Notes: generated by a model from the letters alone, not told the origin. Shown: positions 57,710-64,000, numbered from the stretch's first letter. The stretch is DNA of 64,000 nt from a phage (GCA_025677605.1 GCA_025677605.1_4110.1), one strand, 5' to 3'. Made by a program: numbers and translations.

Positions 57710-58606
57710 ATGTTACCTTTTGTTAGAATGTTTAAGTACGGGAATGTAGGTCCATTACCTGGCCCAAATGGTGGAGTACGAACACCATTTACTACAACAC
57801 CCGTACCTTCAGCACGAAATAACTTTGGTTATACGTATGATGCGGAAAGTAATATTGCTTATATATTTGGTGGTATACAGAATGCGGTGCAGACGGATAA
57901 TCAGTTATGGAGTTTTAATTTAACTACAAGAACGTGGTCACAATTAGCCAATGCACCTGTATCTACATTTGGTAGTGCGTTATGTGCTTATCAGGGAAAA
58001 ATATATTTGTTTGGTGGTTCAGGTAATAGTAGTAATAATTTTTATGTATATAATATAAGTACAAATACATGGATTCTGAACACTAACAGTATTGGGAAGC
58101 CTAGTCAACTGGCGTATAGTAAGATGATTACTGCTGGGGATAAGATATATTTGTGGGGTTCGCCTACTAATAATTCGTTATACAGTTATACTCCAAGTAC
58201 TAATACATGGTCATCATTAGGTACAAGTGATGGAACAAATAACAATGGAGGTGGTGATATGTGTACGGATGGTACTTACATATATATTACTGGTCAAGGT
58301 ACTAGTACTGCACAAAAATATCATATACAAAGTGCGGTGTGGTCTAACATAGCACCAGTTGGTGGTAATAACCCTAGTAAAATATGTTACAGTACATATG
58401 ATAAAAATATATATGCAGTGTCGTATGGTGCATTAAATTTATTGAGATACGATGCAGAAGAAGACATATGGATTCCCTTAGCGGTTAATACTACTTTGAG
58501 TAGTAGTACTGGTGCGTTATTTGGTTCTAAGAATAGTGCTGAGATATTTTATGTACTTGGTTTTGACAATGGCACTCGTGTTAATACGCAGTATGTTTTT
58601 AAATAA
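57710..58606 (+). CDS. Kelch-like beta-propeller protein with conserved MLPFVRM N-terminus
   Basis: start at ATG 57710 after RBS aaaggagg; repeated W...KIYLFGG / DKIYLWG blades. Confidence 0.65.
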   Translation: MLPFVRMFKYGNVGPLPGPNGGVRTPFTTTPVPSARNNFGYTYDAESNIAYIFGGIQNAVQTDNQLWSFNLTTRTWSQLANAPVSTFGSALCAYQGKIYLFGGSGNSSNNFYVYNISTNTWILNTNSIGKPSQLAYSKMITAGDKIYLWGSPTNNSLYSYTPSTNTWSSLGTSDGTNNNGGGDMCTDGTYIYITGQGTSTAQKYHIQSAVWSNIAPVGGNNPSKICYSTYDKNIYAVSYGALNLLRYDAEEDIWIPLAVNTTLSSSTGALFGSKNSAEIFYVLGFDNGTRVNTQYVFK

Positions 58607-58618
58607 TTTGGAGGAATT

Positions 58619-59761
58619 ATGTTACCTTTTGTTAGAATGTTAGAGTACGGGAATATTGCACCAGAACCAAAACCTCTATTTAAAAATAGATTACAAGCAA
58701 ATTATAATACTCGTTTTTATTTGCATGTTAATGGTGACTTGTACTGGTATGGTTCATCTTCATTTGGACAAGGTGGTAATGGTTCATTACAATCATCCAC
58801 CGTATGGACCCGTGTGAATAATAATATTGAACGTTACTGGGGTGGTGTTCTTGGTTCCATTGCCATTAAGAATGATGGAACTATTTGGTTCACAGGTGCT
58901 AGTATAGTAATGCCACAAATCGGAACAAATACAAATGGGGTTTGGATTGATGTAACCCAGTACTTCACTGATTTTGGTGTCAGTGCTGATGATATTGATG
59001 GTATTGCTGTTGGGCAGAATTTGCGTGTATTTTTAAAAAATGGAAAATGGTTCTACTGTGGTGCTGGCGAAGGTGGTGTATTTGGTAACGCGTCAACAGC
59101 TAATGTCACATCGTTCAGATACAGCACTATAGAAAATGTTAAAAGTTATGGCTGTTCTTTGCTCAGTACTGGGTTAGTACTTGATGATGGCTCCTATTGG
59201 TATGCAGGAAATACTGTTGCTCCTGGTAGTACAAAAACATCAAATATATTAAGTTTTACAAAAGACAATACGATCACCAATGCTATACAAGCTGTAAATA
59301 CATACCGTACTTCATATATATTTCTTAATGATGGTTCAGTGAAGGTTGCTTCACCAAATGCATATGGTCAAGCTGGTGTAGGTACAGTATCAGCAGTACC
59401 AATGAGTACATTAATTCCCAATTTATCATTCCAAGGTGAAATAGAGTTGGTGGGTGGTTTATCCAACAACGAAGGGAATGGATGTGTTGTTAAAAATAAT
59501 AATAAGTTATATACTTGTGGTCGAAATACCTATGGTGCATGTGGTGTTAATCAAACATCCGAAAATATACTAACTTTCACCGAAATGGTTCTTGATGCAT
59601 TAGAAGGAAGACGAATTTCAGGCTTCGTAATTGATAATTTCTATTCAATGATAATTGATGAAAATAACAATTTGTATATGAGTGGTTTACCTGAACTTGG
59701 AAATGTTCCAGCCGTTAGAGTACCAACCAGAGTTCCTGATTCACTTCTACCGTGGAAATAA
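58619..59761 (+). CDS. beta-propeller repeat protein (RCC1-like) with conserved MLPFVRM N-terminus
   Basis: 380 aa; coupled to upstream gene via ggagg; repeats such as YTCGRNTYGACGV. Confidence 0.6.
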   Translation: MLPFVRMLEYGNIAPEPKPLFKNRLQANYNTRFYLHVNGDLYWYGSSSFGQGGNGSLQSSTVWTRVNNNIERYWGGVLGSIAIKNDGTIWFTGASIVMPQIGTNTNGVWIDVTQYFTDFGVSADDIDGIAVGQNLRVFLKNGKWFYCGAGEGGVFGNASTANVTSFRYSTIENVKSYGCSLLSTGLVLDDGSYWYAGNTVAPGSTKTSNILSFTKDNTITNAIQAVNTYRTSYIFLNDGSVKVASPNAYGQAGVGTVSAVPMSTLIPNLSFQGEIELVGGLSNNEGNGCVVKNNNKLYTCGRNTYGACGVNQTSENILTFTEMVLDALEGRRISGFVIDNFYSMIIDENNNLYMSGLPELGNVPAVRVPTRVPDSLLPWK

Positions 59762-59768
59762 TATAATA

Positions 59769-59795
59769 GCCAGTACTCTGTACTGGCTTTTCTTA
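59769..59795 (+). terminator. rho-independent terminator
   Basis: GCCAGTAC-tct-GTACTGGC followed by T-rich tract. Confidence 0.6.
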
Positions 59796-59796
59796 T

Positions 59797-59829
59797 TTGT
59801 ATTAAATATAGTATAATGAATAAAGGAGG
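59797..59829 (+). promoter_or_regulatory. conserved upstream cassette (promoter-like box + RBS)
   Basis: ttgtattaaatatagtataatgaataaaggagg. Confidence 0.5.
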
Positions 59830-59833
59830 AATT

Positions 59834-62230: not shown

Positions 62231-62261
62231 TGATTAAATATAGTATAATGAATAAAGGAGG
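62230..62261 (+). promoter_or_regulatory. conserved upstream cassette (promoter-like box + RBS)
   Basis: ttgattaaatatagtataatgaataaaggagg. Confidence 0.5.
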
Positions 62262-62265
62262 AAAT

Positions 62266-63456
62266 ATGTTACCTTTTGTTAGAATGTTTGATTACGGGAA
62301 TATAACACCAGTCCCTATTCAAATTAAGAAAATATCACCAACTGATTTAGATGTTGTCGTTCTTTATACGGATGGTCAACTATACGCACGTGGAAATAAT
62401 AGTTTTGGGAAGTTTGGTAGAGGAAATAGTAATGCAGTAAAGTCATGGACCTTAATTAGAGAAAATGTTAAAGATTTCTGGGTGTCACAAGGAACTTTGT
62501 TAGTACAAGATAATGACTTAAATTATTTTTATTGTGGATACGGTGATCATGTTGGTTTACCAACTAGTACTACAACATTTTTAAGTTATAACCAATATAT
62601 TGAAAATTTATACACACAAAGTTCAAGTACTTCAATTAAACAGATGTATGCAGGCACTACGTGGTTTACTTTCTTAATGGATAATAATACAATATGGAGT
62701 ACTGGTTGGAGTGGGGCTAGACAATTCGCTGATGGTACTGGAAAAACTCAACAAATAACAGATGGATCATTTGTAAAAGCTGTCACGCCTAATGTTGATA
62801 TTGCACAAATACAGTCAACAAATAACTGTGTAATGTTTTTTGATACACAAAATAATTTATATATTGGTGGTGGTACGTCAGGTATAAGTACCAGTACCAC
62901 ATGGACACCATTTAATGAATATACTTTATATAAACCAAGTACAACATACACAAAAACGTTACAATACACTGGATGCTCAAGTGGTGCAGTCAGTGCTTTG
63001 GTTGAGAATCCAAGTACTGGTGCACGTCAGTTTCTAGTTGGTGGTTTAGCGAGTAATGGTGCATGGGGTAACAATACCACAACCAGTTCGGCACTTGCTG
63101 TATTAGGGAGCAATAGTACGACATTACCAACTGGAACTTTGTATTCAATTCATACAGGATACCCAACACAATCTAGTATACTAGTTACGAGTACTGGTGT
63201 ATATGCAACTGGTTTAAATGCGAGTAGTTATGCTGGTTCGTTGGGTGTTGGTTCTAATGTTACTATTGGTAGATTTACTATATGTCCAATGCCAGCAGAA
63301 ATATCATATTCTATGTATGATAAAATAAAAATATATCGCGGTTCGTATCGTACTTTTCTAACTGCTGATATGAAAAATATATATTCAACCGGAACGTATG
63401 ATGATGGTGGTCCTAGTACAAATAGATATGTTCTGGATACACCTAGACAATTGTAA
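62266..63456 (+). CDS. beta-propeller repeat protein with conserved MLPFVRM N-terminus
   Basis: start at ATG 62266 after aaaggagg; repeats YARGNNSFGKFGRG. Confidence 0.65.
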   Translation: MLPFVRMFDYGNITPVPIQIKKISPTDLDVVVLYTDGQLYARGNNSFGKFGRGNSNAVKSWTLIRENVKDFWVSQGTLLVQDNDLNYFYCGYGDHVGLPTSTTTFLSYNQYIENLYTQSSSTSIKQMYAGTTWFTFLMDNNTIWSTGWSGARQFADGTGKTQQITDGSFVKAVTPNVDIAQIQSTNNCVMFFDTQNNLYIGGGTSGISTSTTWTPFNEYTLYKPSTTYTKTLQYTGCSSGAVSALVENPSTGARQFLVGGLASNGAWGNNTTTSSALAVLGSNSTTLPTGTLYSIHTGYPTQSSILVTSTGVYATGLNASSYAGSLGVGSNVTIGRFTICPMPAEISYSMYDKIKIYRGSYRTFLTADMKNIYSTGTYDDGGPSTNRYVLDTPRQL

Positions 63457-63463
63457 TAATTTC

Positions 63464-63493
63464 GCCAGTACTTGATACTGGCTTTTCTTTTTT
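63464..63493 (+). terminator. rho-independent terminator
   Basis: CCAGTACTTGATACTGG then T-run. Confidence 0.6.
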
Positions 63494-63523
63494 GATTAAA
63501 TATAGTATAATGAATAAAGGAGG
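63492..63523 (+). promoter_or_regulatory. conserved upstream cassette (promoter-like box + RBS)
   Basis: ttgattaaatatagtataatgaataaaggagg. Confidence 0.5.
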
Positions 63524-63527
63524 AAAT

Positions 63528-64000
63528 ATGTTACCTTTTGTAAGAATGTTGGATTATGGAAATAAAGTTTTACCATATATTCCCAATTTTGTTAAATTAG
63601 TTACACCATCGTGTGGTTATTCATATACATGTACAATGATGCTTGATAAAAATGGTTCAATATGGGCTATAGGTTTTCAGAATGGTGGAATTTTTGGTTT
63701 AGGTCATACTAATCCAGTAACTGAATGGACAAAAATATATAGCAATGTTAAAGATTTTTGGTGCAGTACAATGAACGCTTTTTGTCTAATACGCACAAAT
63801 GATGATAGATTCTTTTATAGTGGTTTAGATAAATGGCTGGGTAATAATACAACCAATAATATAACAACATTCACAGAATGTACAAGCTATTTTACACAAT
63901 TTGGAATTTCAAGAATTAAAGATATATACGTGGGTTATGATTATGCTTTGATTTTAGGTACAGATAATAGTTTATATTTGTTAGGTGATAATACTGGTTA
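63528..64000 (+). CDS. beta-propeller repeat protein with conserved MLPFVRM N-terminus (3' partial, runs off window)
   Basis: MLPFVRMLDYGNKVLPY...; no stop before window end. Confidence 0.6.
   Translation, partial: MLPFVRMLDYGNKVLPYIPNFVKLVTPSCGYSYTCTMMLDKNGSIWAIGFQNGGIFGLGHTNPVTEWTKIYSNVKDFWCSTMNAFCLIRTNDDRFFYSGLDKWLGNNTTNNITTFTECTSYFTQFGISRIKDIYVGYDYALILGTDNSLYLLGDNTG

What the first reader, a model, noticed from the sequence alone, without database searches (positions are those of the whole stretch)
57710..64000. Six tandem beta-propeller genes (Kelch-like and RCC1-like) sharing the N-terminal peptide MLPFVRM-x-x-YGN
The first gene has Kelch-type blades (W...KIYLFGG); later ones have RCC1-like blades (YSSGWNSSGQHGTGD). 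All six begin with the same 12 residues, MLPFVR[ML][FL][KED]YGN[IV], and members 1 and 3-6 are each preceded by an identical terminator and promoter-like box plus RBS aaaggagg; member 2 is coupled directly to member 1. A short conserved N-terminal tag on divergent propellers suggests a shared targeting, anchoring or processing signal, for example virion incorporation or attachment to a common adaptor as in modular receptor-binding proteins. I am not aware of a described system like this.
Basis: partly seen in the sequence, partly recalled or inferred. Interest (0 to 1): 0.8.

Follow-up and report, generated by a model that had tools for sequence, protein, structure and literature searches.

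The report
Shared 12-residue tag on jumbo-phage virion proteins
A jumbo E. coli phage carries a row of otherwise unrelated sugar-binding-type proteins that all start with the same 12 amino acids, most likely an address tag that plugs each of them into the virus particle, a plug-and-play principle known from small phages but not described for this family.

Summary
From 57710 to the window end there are six tandem + strand genes: one Kelch propeller and five RCC1-like propellers. One is frameshifted and one is cut by the window end. All six start with MLPFVR[ML][FL][KED]YGN.

Identity among the six is 74-100% over the first 36 nt. It falls to background at codon 13. Bodies are only 19-25% identical.

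The window is from an Asteriusvirus-type (121Q/PBECO4/phAPEC6/A4) jumbo coliphage.

The tag M-[LI]-P-F-x-R-[MIL]-x-x-Y-G-N heads well over 100 ORFs in Rak2-like phages of several genera. Synonymous codons vary, so selection acts on the protein. It sits on at least 10 unrelated bodies, including RCC1-like, Kelch, ConA/LamG-like and glycine-rich ones.

AlphaFold2 gives confident propellers, with the tag disordered and outside the fold.

Published virion proteomics detected 8 of 10 tagged proteins in phage CBB, 6 in phAPEC6, and GAP32 gp001.

Best reading: a docking tag that loads interchangeable ligand-binding heads onto the virion, probably on the outside. The common "DNA condensation" annotation is unsupported.

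The principle is known from the N-terminal docking peptides of K1-5/SP6/KP32 and the T4 capsid-targeting sequence. This peptide, its cargo and its scale are not described. The acceptor and the location in the virion remain unknown.

The parts
57710..58606 (+). g1: tag + Pro-rich linker + six-bladed Kelch propeller (298 aa)
   Evidence: Pfam PF24681 87.8 bits. AF2 pLDDT 86, pTM 0.86, residues 1-22 below 50. Foldseek matches Kelch domains at TM 0.76. 99% identical to phage A4 'kelch-like protein'.
58619..59761 (+). g2: tag + RCC1-like propeller (380 aa), translationally coupled to g1
   Evidence: PF13540 29.6 bits, PHROG 4219 E 2.8e-103. Body 99% identical to 121Q_247, but the tag matches at only 9/12.
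59834..60943 (+). g3: tag + seven-bladed RCC1-like propeller (369 aa)
   Evidence: AF2 pLDDT 87, pTM 0.87, residues 1-13 below 50. Foldseek matches UVR8/RLD domains at TM about 0.8.
61015..62194 (+). g4: tagged RCC1-like gene interrupted by a +1 frameshift (ORFs 61015-61194 and 61118-62194)
   Evidence: PBECO4 has the same frameshifted sequence in the aligned first 246 nt, and most other isolates match at the same 1180-nt length with two ORFs annotated in several. Turkey5 restores one ORF by a 1-nt deletion after the T6 run.
62266..63456 (+). g5: tag + RCC1-like propeller (396 aa)
   Evidence: Body 86-91% identical to 121Q_244 and its phAPEC6 orthologue; tag 9/12.
63528..64000 (+). g6: tag + RCC1-like propeller, cut by the window end
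   Evidence: PHROG 4219 E 7e-54. The best 121Q/phAPEC6 hit is only 41% identical.
57710..57745 (+). The 12-codon tag of g1. Equivalent tags lie at 58619-58654, 59834-59869, 61015-61050, 62266-62301 and 63528-63563.
   Evidence: Alignment. Identity profile. Family-wide residue and codon table.
57680..57705 (+). Promoter-like box AAATATAGTATAAT (TAAATA core plus TATAAT) and RBS AAAGGAGG before g1. The same box lies at 59804-59817, 60984-60997, 62236-62249 and 63498-63511.
   Evidence: Five exact copies and no others in the window. The TAAATA core matches the late-type promoters upstream of A4 structural genes. It also matches those predicted for CBB_537/551/552/553.
59768..59788 (+). Intrinsic-terminator-like hairpin GCCAGTAC-loop-GTACTGGC plus a T-run after g2. 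Equivalents lie at 60950-60968, 62202-62220 and 63464-63482.
   Evidence: Terminator scan. Alignment.

Best explanation
The six genes belong to a large modular family of late-expressed, low-copy virion proteins of Rak2-like jumbo phages.

Each protein has three parts:
- a Met1-anchored 12-residue tag, M-[LI]-P-F-x-R-[MIL]-x-x-Y-G-N;
- a short proline-rich linker;
- an autonomously folding ligand-binding body. Here the body is a Kelch or RCC1-like beta-propeller. In relatives it can also be a ConA/LamG-like jelly roll, a glycine-rich domain, or two propellers in tandem.

The tag is not part of the fold. It stays exposed and docks into one common acceptor site of the virion. A docked beta-strand with conserved face L2-F4-R6-hydrophobic8-Y10 followed by a G-N turn is possible; this geometry was not modelled. 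Any body carrying the tag is therefore loaded onto the particle. The bodies are most likely displayed on the outside as a mixed set of accessory adhesins for host-surface or environmental glycans.

Each gene is an insulated cassette of terminator, late-type promoter, strong RBS and tag. The roughly 110 bp shared by the cassettes also serves as recombination homology. This lets bodies be swapped, gained or lost, and homogenises the tag within a genome.

Shown: tag conservation at the protein level, independence from the fold, heterologous bodies, virion presence of homologues, and a mosaic array.

Inferred: that the tag causes incorporation, the docking geometry, the outside location, and glycan binding.
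For: 1. There is a sharp conservation boundary at codon 12. Paralogue bodies are 19-25% identical while tags match at 10-12/12.

2. 77 non-redundant tagged ORFs come from Asteriusvirus, Mimasvirus, a contig of the size of Serratia phage BF, Erwinia phage Hallingskeid and uncultivated contigs of about 350 kb. Their codons vary synonymously: P3 CCT 39, CCA 33, CCG 4; Y10 TAC 50, TAT 27; G11 GGG 36, GGA 24, GGT 14. A metagenome scan added 68 more.

3. The tag is kept in translationally coupled genes that lack the promoter cassette: g2 here, and most CBB and Hallingskeid members.

4. The bodies fall into at least 10 clusters with no detectable similarity to each other: RCC1-like, Kelch, Laminin_G_3/ConA-like, glycine-rich and others. 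One 690-aa protein carries an RCC1-like region by eye plus a Pfam-confirmed Kelch domain behind a single tag.

5. AF2 gives confident propellers, with tag residues 1-13 (g3) and 1-22 (g1) below pLDDT 50.

6. Virion mass spectrometry in relatives: CBB_247, 536, 537, 548, 549, 551, 552 and 553 were detected, that is 8 of 10 tagged genes (hypergeometric P = 2e-7). phAPEC6 gp003, 005, 006, 007, 009 and 010 were detected (P = 9e-4). GAP32 gp001 was also detected.

7. The cassette box has the TAAATA core of the late promoters seen before the capsid, scaffold, tail-fibre and baseplate genes of phage A4, and predicted before the CBB tagged genes.

8. The family is 46% S/T/N/G/Y and 11.7% K/R/E/D. Other window proteins are 29% and 24.8%. 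By my own judgement this resembles fibres and adhesins rather than DNA-binding internal proteins. Distant Kelch relatives carry source names such as N-acetylneuraminate mutarotase, and several have PF18962 among their precomputed domains.

9. Precedent: 7-29-residue N-terminal conserved peptides are necessary and sufficient to dock secondary receptor-binding proteins in KP32, and are proposed for K1E/K1-5/SP6 and KP34.
Against: - No experiment links the tag to incorporation.
- No acceptor was identified.
- There are no proteomic or structural data for this particular phage, and no solved structure of any Rak2-like virion.
- The mass-spectrometry signals are modest: 1-8 unique peptides.
- Known docking-peptide cargoes are trimeric tailspikes. 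These bodies look monomeric, and none carries a recognisable depolymerase or tailspike domain.
- 121Q and phAPEC6 contain an inner body whose proteins are unknown, and the phAPEC6 authors suggested the RCC1-like proteins for it. An internal location is therefore not excluded.
- g4 and several 121Q members are frameshifted, so individual members are dispensable.
Confidence: 0.55

Rival explanations
1. The tag is a capsid-targeting sequence. It would bind the scaffolding core so that diverse proteins are packaged inside the head, as inner-body or ejected proteins, like the T4 internal proteins. After ejection the propellers would bind host targets, for example defence proteins.
For: The logic matches the T4 CTS: a conserved N-terminal signal of about 10 residues on a highly diverse protein set (PMC3012670). 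These phages have T4-type capsid, scaffold and prohead-protease genes. 121Q and phAPEC6 show an inner body of unknown composition, and the phAPEC6 authors proposed the RCC1-like proteins for it. The tagged proteins occur in virions at low to moderate abundance.
Against: There is no conserved protease site. The A4 major capsid protein carries a gp21-type VMLQE|S site near residue 43, and 121Q's capsid protein is listed at 42.2 and 37 kDa. Tag position 9 is K, E, Q, D, N or T, and only 19 of 80 members have [LI]xE in the first 40 residues. The proteins are 25-45 kDa, poor in charge (11.7% KRED) and have a median pI of 7.5. T4 internal proteins contact DNA through lysines. The folds are lectin-like.
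Confidence: 0.2
2. The N-terminal identity is a by-product of DNA-level conservation. The first 36 nt would belong to a repeated regulatory or recombination cassette (terminator, promoter, RBS, initiation region) kept uniform by gene conversion or by an RNA-level requirement such as a translational operator. The peptide itself would have no function.
For: Within the window, synonymous sites of codons 1-6 are almost invariant and the identical stretch runs on from the RBS. Variable tag positions follow the genome rather than the orthologue: bodies are 97-99% identical but tags match at only 9/12. Chimeric tags such as ARMFK occur. Together these show real gene conversion across this segment.
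Against: Across genera the peptide is kept while codons change. It is kept in coupled genes with entirely different upstream DNA. P3, F4, Y10, G11 and N12 are near-invariant in alignments that were not selected by the motif. The boundary falls exactly at a codon and domain border, followed by a Pro-rich linker.
Confidence: 0.07
3. The tag is recognised by something other than the virion. Candidates are a phage chaperone or assembly factor for beta-rich proteins, or a protease or degron system that times their accumulation.
For: The phages encode a GroES-like co-chaperone, tail-fibre chaperones and a ClpP-like subunit. An exposed Met1-anchored peptide suits such recognition.
Against: This does not explain why tagged proteins of unrelated folds all end up in virions. 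AF2 suggests the bodies fold autonomously.
Confidence: 0.1
4. The tag is a structural element of the propeller, such as the 'velcro' closing strand or a folding nucleus. Alternatively, the proteins are RCC1-type DNA/chromosome condensation factors, as annotated.
For: Many propellers close with an N-terminal strand. GenBank and PHROG name the family 'regulator of chromosome condensation' or 'DNA condensation protein'.
Against: The tag is disordered in both models, while the propellers are complete without it. The same tag heads ConA/LamG-like and glycine-rich bodies. The low-charge composition speaks against DNA binding. The name rests only on fold-level similarity to eukaryotic RCC1 (12-17% identity).
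Confidence: 0.03

Closest known systems
Conserved N-terminal docking peptides of secondary receptor-binding proteins (K1E/K1-5/SP6 hepta- and undecapeptides; KP34 MALxxLV; KP32 gp38 residues 1-29)
   Same: A very short peptide at the extreme N-terminus is shared by otherwise unrelated virion proteins and acts as a modular plug into a common acceptor. Cargo can be swapped behind it (PMC6872550; PMC13352976).
   Different: The peptide sequence is different. The cargo is predicted monomeric propellers and lectin-like jelly rolls, not trimeric beta-helix depolymerases. There are up to about 13-15 tagged paralogues per genome instead of 1-4. The host is a T4-related jumbo myovirus. The acceptor (a T4gp10-like branching domain in the known cases) is unidentified here, and the function of this tag is untested.
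T4 capsid-targeting sequence (CTS) of the polymorphic internal proteins
   Same: An N-terminal signal of about 10 residues is the only conserved part of a highly diverse, fast-evolving set of proteins incorporated into the particle (PMC3012670). The phages are T4-related in their head genes.
   Different: By my own recollection the CTS ends in a prohead-protease site and is removed. No such site is conserved here. T4 internal proteins contact DNA through lysines and, by my own knowledge, are small and lie inside the head. These proteins are 25-45 kDa, charge-poor and lectin-like.
'RCC1-like / putative DNA condensation protein' paralogues of 121Q, PBECO4, phAPEC6 and GAP32 gp001; Kelch-like proteins of CBB
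   Same: These are the same gene family. g2, g3 and g5 are 86-99% identical to 121Q and phAPEC6 members. The multiplicity and virion association were already reported.
   Different: The papers treat them as RCC1 or Kelch proteins with a possible DNA-ordering role. In what I could search, they do not mention the shared N-terminal peptide or that it unites them with the LamG-like and other 'structural proteins'.
Cohesin-dockerin assembly of cellulosomes (own knowledge, not tested here)
   Same: One small conserved docking element on many different functional modules lets them occupy equivalent sites on a scaffold in mixed composition.
   Different: Dockerin is a folded calcium-binding domain of about 70 residues. 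Here the element is a 12-residue linear peptide and the scaffold is a virus particle.
PeSL-type mobile regulatory cassettes of T4-type phages (own recollection of Arbiol, Comeau and Krisch 2010; not read here)
   Same: A repeated stem-loop terminator, promoter and RBS between variable genes could act as recombination homology for modular shuffling.
   Different: PeSLs carry early promoters and, as I recall, do not extend into a conserved coding tag. This box looks like the late type.

Membership tests
RCC1-like repeat beta-propeller (Pfam RCC1_2/RCC1/WD40_RLD; PHROG 4219) | Sequence match to RCC1 repeat models at or above the curated cut-off | tested here: met
   PF13540: g2 29.6, g3 28.0 and g5 22.0 bits (cut-off 22). 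PF00415: g4 22.8 bits (cut-off 21.7). The g6 fragment is below cut-off. PF25390 scores only 34-70 bits against 150. PHROG 4219 E values run from 7e-54 to 9e-105.
RCC1-like repeat beta-propeller (Pfam RCC1_2/RCC1/WD40_RLD; PHROG 4219) | Seven-bladed propeller fold | tested here: met
   AF2 pLDDT 87, pTM 0.87. Foldseek matches UVR8, RPGR and HERC RLDs at TM 0.7-0.81, E down to 3.5e-22.
RCC1-like repeat beta-propeller (Pfam RCC1_2/RCC1/WD40_RLD; PHROG 4219) | Chromatin/DNA binding or GTPase exchange activity (the basis of the 'DNA condensation' name) | not testable with these tools
   There is only indirect evidence against: 11.7% charged residues and a median pI of 7.5, and 12-17% identity to eukaryotic RCC1/RLDs.
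Kelch-repeat beta-propeller | Kelch repeat matches above cut-off and a six-bladed fold | tested here: met
   PF24681 87.8 bits against 50, and PF13964, PF01344, PF13418 and PF13415 all above cut-off. AF2 pLDDT 86. Foldseek matches Kelch domains at TM up to 0.76.
N-terminal docking ('conserved') peptide of branched receptor-binding-protein systems | Short conserved peptide at the extreme N-terminus of otherwise unrelated proteins of one phage group | tested here: met
N-terminal docking ('conserved') peptide of branched receptor-binding-protein systems | The proteins are components of the virion | tested here: inconclusive
   Met for homologues by published mass spectrometry (CBB 8 of 10, phAPEC6 6, GAP32 gp001). 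There are no data for the phage of this window.
N-terminal docking ('conserved') peptide of branched receptor-binding-protein systems | Partner carrying a T4gp10-like branching domain that binds the peptide | not tested
   No acceptor was identified, and there is none in the window. Multimer modelling is not available here.
N-terminal docking ('conserved') peptide of branched receptor-binding-protein systems | Cargo is a trimeric tailspike/depolymerase-type receptor-binding protein | tested here: not met
   Bodies are propellers, ConA/LamG-like or glycine-rich. No beta-helix or depolymerase domain was found.
N-terminal docking ('conserved') peptide of branched receptor-binding-protein systems | Peptide necessary (and sufficient) for incorporation | not testable with these tools
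   Needs phage genetics.
T4-type capsid-targeting sequence of internal proteins | N-terminal signal of about 10 residues shared by diverse proteins | tested here: met
T4-type capsid-targeting sequence of internal proteins | Signal ends in a prohead-protease site ([LI]-x-E) and is removed (own recollection of the T4 system) | tested here: not met
   Position 9 is K 35, E 13, Q 12, plus others. [LI]xE occurs in the first 40 residues of only 19 of 80 members. Actual cleavage is untested.
T4-type capsid-targeting sequence of internal proteins | Small, basic, DNA-associated proteins located inside the head | tested here: not met
   Size is 25-45 kDa, charge content is low and median pI is 7.5. The location itself is not testable here.

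The most novel reading that the evidence does not exclude
Rak2-like jumbo phages may run a cellulosome-like, plug-and-play display system. One type of acceptor site on the particle (capsid, sheath or fibre) would accept any protein that begins with the 12-residue tag. Each virion would then carry a stochastic mixture of a dozen or more different lectin-like heads encoded by a rapidly shuffling cassette array. This would give combinatorial surface binding that is separate from the canonical tail fibres. 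The tag alone would suffice to load foreign cargo onto the virion.
Probability: 0.3. Interest if true: 0.8.

Novelty: new variant of a known kind. Interest (0 to 1): 0.6.

Why it matters
- It would re-annotate a widely mislabelled family ('DNA condensation protein', 'regulator of chromosome condensation', 'HERC1 ubiquitin ligase', 'S-layer protein') as tagged virion-associated binding modules.
- It would unite these proteins with many 'hypothetical structural proteins' of jumbo phages under one mechanism.
- It gives a concrete, cheap experiment (tag deletion and tag-reporter fusion) to learn how about 10% of the virion protein species of these phages are recruited.
- It may help explain their accessory virion proteins, although GAP32, with no reported whiskers, also has tagged virion proteins.
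- A 12-residue loading tag would be a handy tool for decorating or loading jumbo-phage particles.
- The cassette array is also a clear example of concerted evolution of a signal next to diversifying cargo.

Tried and rejected
- **Velcro strand.** Rejected, because AF2 leaves residues 1-13 and 1-22 disordered and the tag also heads non-propeller bodies.
- **Uniform recent duplication.** Rejected by the identity profile.
- **Pure DNA-level cassette.** Largely rejected by cross-genus synonymous variation and by coupled genes without the cassette. Gene conversion over the tag is nevertheless real.
- **Tag variants co-evolving with a phage-specific acceptor.** Weakened, because single contigs mix VRMFD and ARMVK tags and carry a chimera.
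- **Hair or whisker fibres as the acceptor.** Left open but not favoured, because GAP32, with no reported whiskers, also has tagged virion proteins.
- **Literature searches.** A search for the literal peptides found nothing relevant. The Sharanji paper holds nothing on the family. An 'RCC1' hit in a prasinovirus paper referred to culture-collection strain numbers.
- **Chance matches.** Two IMG/VR pattern hits (L016, L018) are internal matches in an unrelated 548-aa ORF.
- **Bodies with tailspike or depolymerase domains.** The metagenome scan was aimed at these; none was found.
- **Solved structures.** PDB holds no Rak2-like virion structure.
- **Profile search with the 12-mer.** Not attempted, because the motif carries too little information for a billion-protein library.

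Full report
**What is there**

The last 6.3 kb of the window hold six tandem + strand genes. They start at 57710, 58619, 59834, 61015, 62266 and 63528.

- g1 is a Kelch protein (PF24681, 87.8 bits against a cut-off of 50).
- g2-g6 are RCC1-like. RCC1 repeat models reach or pass their cut-offs in g2-g5. The whole-domain model PF25390 stays below its cut-off.
- PHROG 4219 and 12615 match strongly.
- All six begin MLPFVR[ML][FL][KED]YGN, and a six-frame scan finds that motif nowhere else in the 64 kb.
- g2 follows g1 after 12 nt with its own GGAGG.
- g1 and g3-g6 are each preceded by the exact box AAATATAGTATAAT and by AAAGGAGG. There are five copies, none elsewhere.
- g3-g6 are also preceded by a GCCAGTAC-loop-GTACTGGC hairpin with a T-run.

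**Not a uniform duplication**

Ungapped pairwise DNA identity among the six is 1.0-0.74 for nt 0-35 after the ATG. It drops at once to 0.46 and then to about 0.3, the background for this A+T-rich DNA. Paralogue bodies are 19-25% identical, while their tags match at 10-12 of 12 positions. In a 17-sequence alignment of RCC1-like members, P3, F4, Y10, G11 and N12 are among the few near-invariant columns.

**Where the window comes from**

Megablast and tblastn place the window in the Asteriusvirus group of jumbo coliphages of about 350 kb: 121Q, PBECO4, phAPEC6, G17 and A4. g1 is 99% identical to the 'kelch-like protein' of phage A4.

In 121Q the array spans about 14 kb and 13-15 genes (PBI_121Q_234-248). 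It is transcribed divergently from flanking arrays of tiny genes.

Array content is mosaic:
- g2, g3 and g5 have 86-99% orthologues in 121Q and phAPEC6.
- g1 has none there.
- The best hit for g4 in those two phages is 32% identical, although PBECO4-type phages have 97% orthologues.
- The best hit for g6 is 41%.

**The tag is a protein-level feature of a much larger family**

The annotated array genes of 121Q and phAPEC6 begin MLPF[AGVT]RM[VIM][KN]YGN. The same peptide, M-[LI]-P-F-x-[RI]-[MLI]-x-x-Y-[GA]-N, heads several proteins in other genera:
- CBB_247, 536, 537 and 548-554 of Pectobacterium phage CBB;
- GAP32_001 and 002;
- nine consecutive genes of Erwinia phage Hallingskeid.

Most of these are translationally coupled, with quite different upstream DNA.

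A degenerate DNA pattern scan of IMG/VR returned 21 stretches. All lie in Rak2-like contigs of about 350 kb or a 109-kb fragment, except two chance internal matches. A stricter pattern in metagenomes added 68 more tagged ORFs.

Among 77 non-redundant ORFs the codons vary synonymously where the residue is fixed: P3 is CCT 39, CCA 33, CCG 4; Y10 is TAC 50, TAT 27; G11 is GGG 36, GGA 24, GGT 14. Because those ORFs were selected with a regex, the invariance itself is partly by construction. The codon spread is not, and the unselected alignment agrees.

**Heterologous bodies**

After removing the first 16 residues, the family falls into at least 10 clusters with no BLAST similarity between them:
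- RCC1-like (49 members) and Kelch (8);
- several Laminin_G_3/ConA-like groups;
- a glycine-rich type (121Q_243);
- other types, several in PHROG 6011 'virion structural protein'.

One metagenomic member of 690 aa carries an RCC1-like region (by eye) and a Pfam-confirmed Kelch propeller behind one tag. Residues 13-22 are proline-enriched, 12% against 2.6% in the bodies.

**Structure**

AlphaFold2 on g3 with a 17-sequence alignment gives pLDDT 87 and pTM 0.87. Foldseek finds UVR8 and RCC1-like domains at TM about 0.8. g1 gives pLDDT 86 and pTM 0.86, and matches Kelch domains at TM up to 0.76.

In both models the most conserved segment of the protein is the least ordered: residues 1-13 of g3 and 1-22 of g1 have pLDDT below 50 and no secondary structure. 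The tag is therefore not the closing strand of the propeller. It behaves like a linear motif that folds on a partner. The alternation L2, F4, R6, hydrophobic 8, Y10 followed by G-N would suit strand addition to a partner sheet. This is inference, not a modelled result.

**Virion association (literature)**

- phAPEC6: virion ESI-MS/MS lists gp003, 005, 006, 007, 009 and 010, annotated 'DNA condensation protein' or 'hypothetical protein', with 1-4 unique peptides (PMC7247149). In the GenBank record these numbers correspond to tagged array genes.
- CBB: Table 4 lists CBB_247, 536, 537, 548, 549, 551, 552 and 553 with 1-8 peptides and up to 51% coverage (PMC5259590).
- That is 8 of the 10 tagged CBB genes among 55 detected of 554 ORFs (P = 2e-7), and 6 of about 12 in phAPEC6 (P = 9e-4).
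- GAP32 gp001 was also found by mass spectrometry.
- Five of the six CBB virion proteins that the authors singled out as absent from GAP32 carry the tag.

None of the papers I could search mentions the shared peptide.

**Expression signals**

The CBB authors predicted a late, T4-like promoter (consensus ATAAATA). Their Table S7 lists it before CBB_537, 551, 552 and 553.

In phage A4, the close relative of the window, (T/C)ATAAATA-type boxes precede several structural genes: the major capsid, scaffold, tail-fibre and baseplate-hub genes and two further 'structural protein' genes.

The cassette box here, ATTAAATATAGTATAAT, has the TAAATA core plus a perfect TATAAT, but no -35 element at proper spacing. 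Late expression is likely but unproven.

**Concerted evolution and shuffling**

Orthologues in the window and in 121Q/phAPEC6 have bodies 97-99% identical. Their tags differ at three positions (5, 8 and 9): VRMLE against ARMVK. Each genome has its own tag flavour, for example MIPFARISKYGN or MLPFSIMNQYGN.

Some metagenomic contigs mix two flavours and carry a chimera, ARMFK. PBECO4's g4 orthologue differs from the window almost only in codons 5-9 and 13-16 of the aligned first 246 nt.

The shared segment of about 110 bp (terminator, promoter, RBS, tag) is therefore a recombination and gene-conversion tract. The variable tag positions probably do not encode partner specificity.

**Mechanism proposed**

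Each cassette is an insulated late transcription unit. The body folds on its own, and the exposed tag docks into a common acceptor in the virion. The bodies act as interchangeable binding heads.

I favour an external location for three reasons:
- The folds are the kinds used for ligand or sugar binding: ConA/LamG-like jelly rolls, and Kelch domains whose distant relatives are named N-acetylneuraminate mutarotase by their sources.
- The family is 46% S/T/N/G/Y and only 11.7% charged, against 29% and 24.8% in other window proteins. By my own judgement this resembles fibres and adhesins.
- There is no conserved prohead-protease site.

The main rival is a T4-like capsid-targeting signal for internal or ejected proteins (PMC3012670). 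It is kept alive by the unexplained inner body of 121Q and phAPEC6. The 'DNA condensation' label rests only on fold-level resemblance to RCC1.

**Comparison with known systems**

The closest mechanism is the conserved N-terminal docking peptide of secondary receptor-binding proteins. These peptides are 7-11 residues in K1E/K1-5/SP6, MALxxLV in KP34, and 29 residues in KP32, where deletion abolishes incorporation and fusion loads a foreign enzyme (PMC6872550 and PMC13352976).

The present case shares the principle. It differs in peptide, in cargo (predicted monomeric propellers and lectin-like folds), in number per genome and in phage type. Its acceptor is unknown. I therefore do not file it as a member of that family, and I rate it a new variant of a known kind.

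**Limits**

- All functional evidence is from relatives.
- The tag's role is inferred, not tested.
- The acceptor and the location in the virion are unknown.
- No Rak2-like virion structure exists in the PDB.

Noticed in passing
whole window (58 sites, e.g. 95, 35897, 40616, 43877, 53125, 57642, 59164); also L002, L003, L004, L005, L027, L030: The palindrome CAGTACTG is the most frequent 8-mer of the window: 58 sites against 0.8 expected, with a maximum of 4 in shuffles. Its core AGTACT occurs 269 times against about 21 expected. It lies in coding and intergenic DNA and sits between TTGACA and TATAAT in several early-type promoters. It is equally enriched in 121Q, A4, CBB, GAP32 and Erwinia phage Hallingskeid. 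The array's terminator stems are built from the same half-sites. A highly iterated palindrome of this kind is unexplained, and I found no literature on it.
   Followed up: partly
window 61015-61260; L028, L029: PBECO4 carries the same +1 frameshift as g4 in the aligned region. Most other isolates match at the same 1180-nt length with about 97% identity, and several have two ORFs annotated. Phage Turkey5 restores a single ORF by a 1-nt deletion right after a T6 run. In the window that run is followed by a rare AGA codon and TAG. The gene is either a long-lived pseudogene or a possible +1 slippage site.
   Followed up: partly
window 53777-57607, minus strand: Dense tandem arrays of genes of about 59-70 aa in at least two paralogue families (for example MYKEFY..., and MLEYY...VLKLISI), with a 223-aa ORF among them. 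[quoted passage not shown] No Pfam match. GC skew flips sign at about 54 kb, although these genes are still on the minus strand.
   Followed up: no
window 35-9931, minus strand: A second tandem family of about 180-210-aa acidic proteins shares a [FY]-Q-x-S motif near residue 120-150. It is interrupted by a 470-aa membrane protein (6092-7504) with a bona fide methyl-accepting chemotaxis signalling domain (PF00015, 127 bits).
   Followed up: partly
L049 (metagenome contig Ga0153956_1002156), minus strand, ORF starting at reverse-strand position 170: A 690-aa family member has one N-terminal tag followed by an RCC1-like region (by eye) and a Pfam-confirmed Kelch propeller. This shows that bodies can be concatenated behind a single tag.
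   Followed up: partly
L001 (phAPEC6 MK817115) 2434-3543, 6063-7253, 7325-8059: Several tagged ORFs of phAPEC6 are unannotated or mis-started in GenBank. For example, gp002 is given a 434-aa ORF starting upstream of the real MLPF start, and gp004 is called on another frame over the glycine-rich member. Product names across records ('HERC1 ubiquitin ligase', 'S-layer protein', 'Ig domain', 'GTPase regulator') are inconsistent.
   Followed up: no
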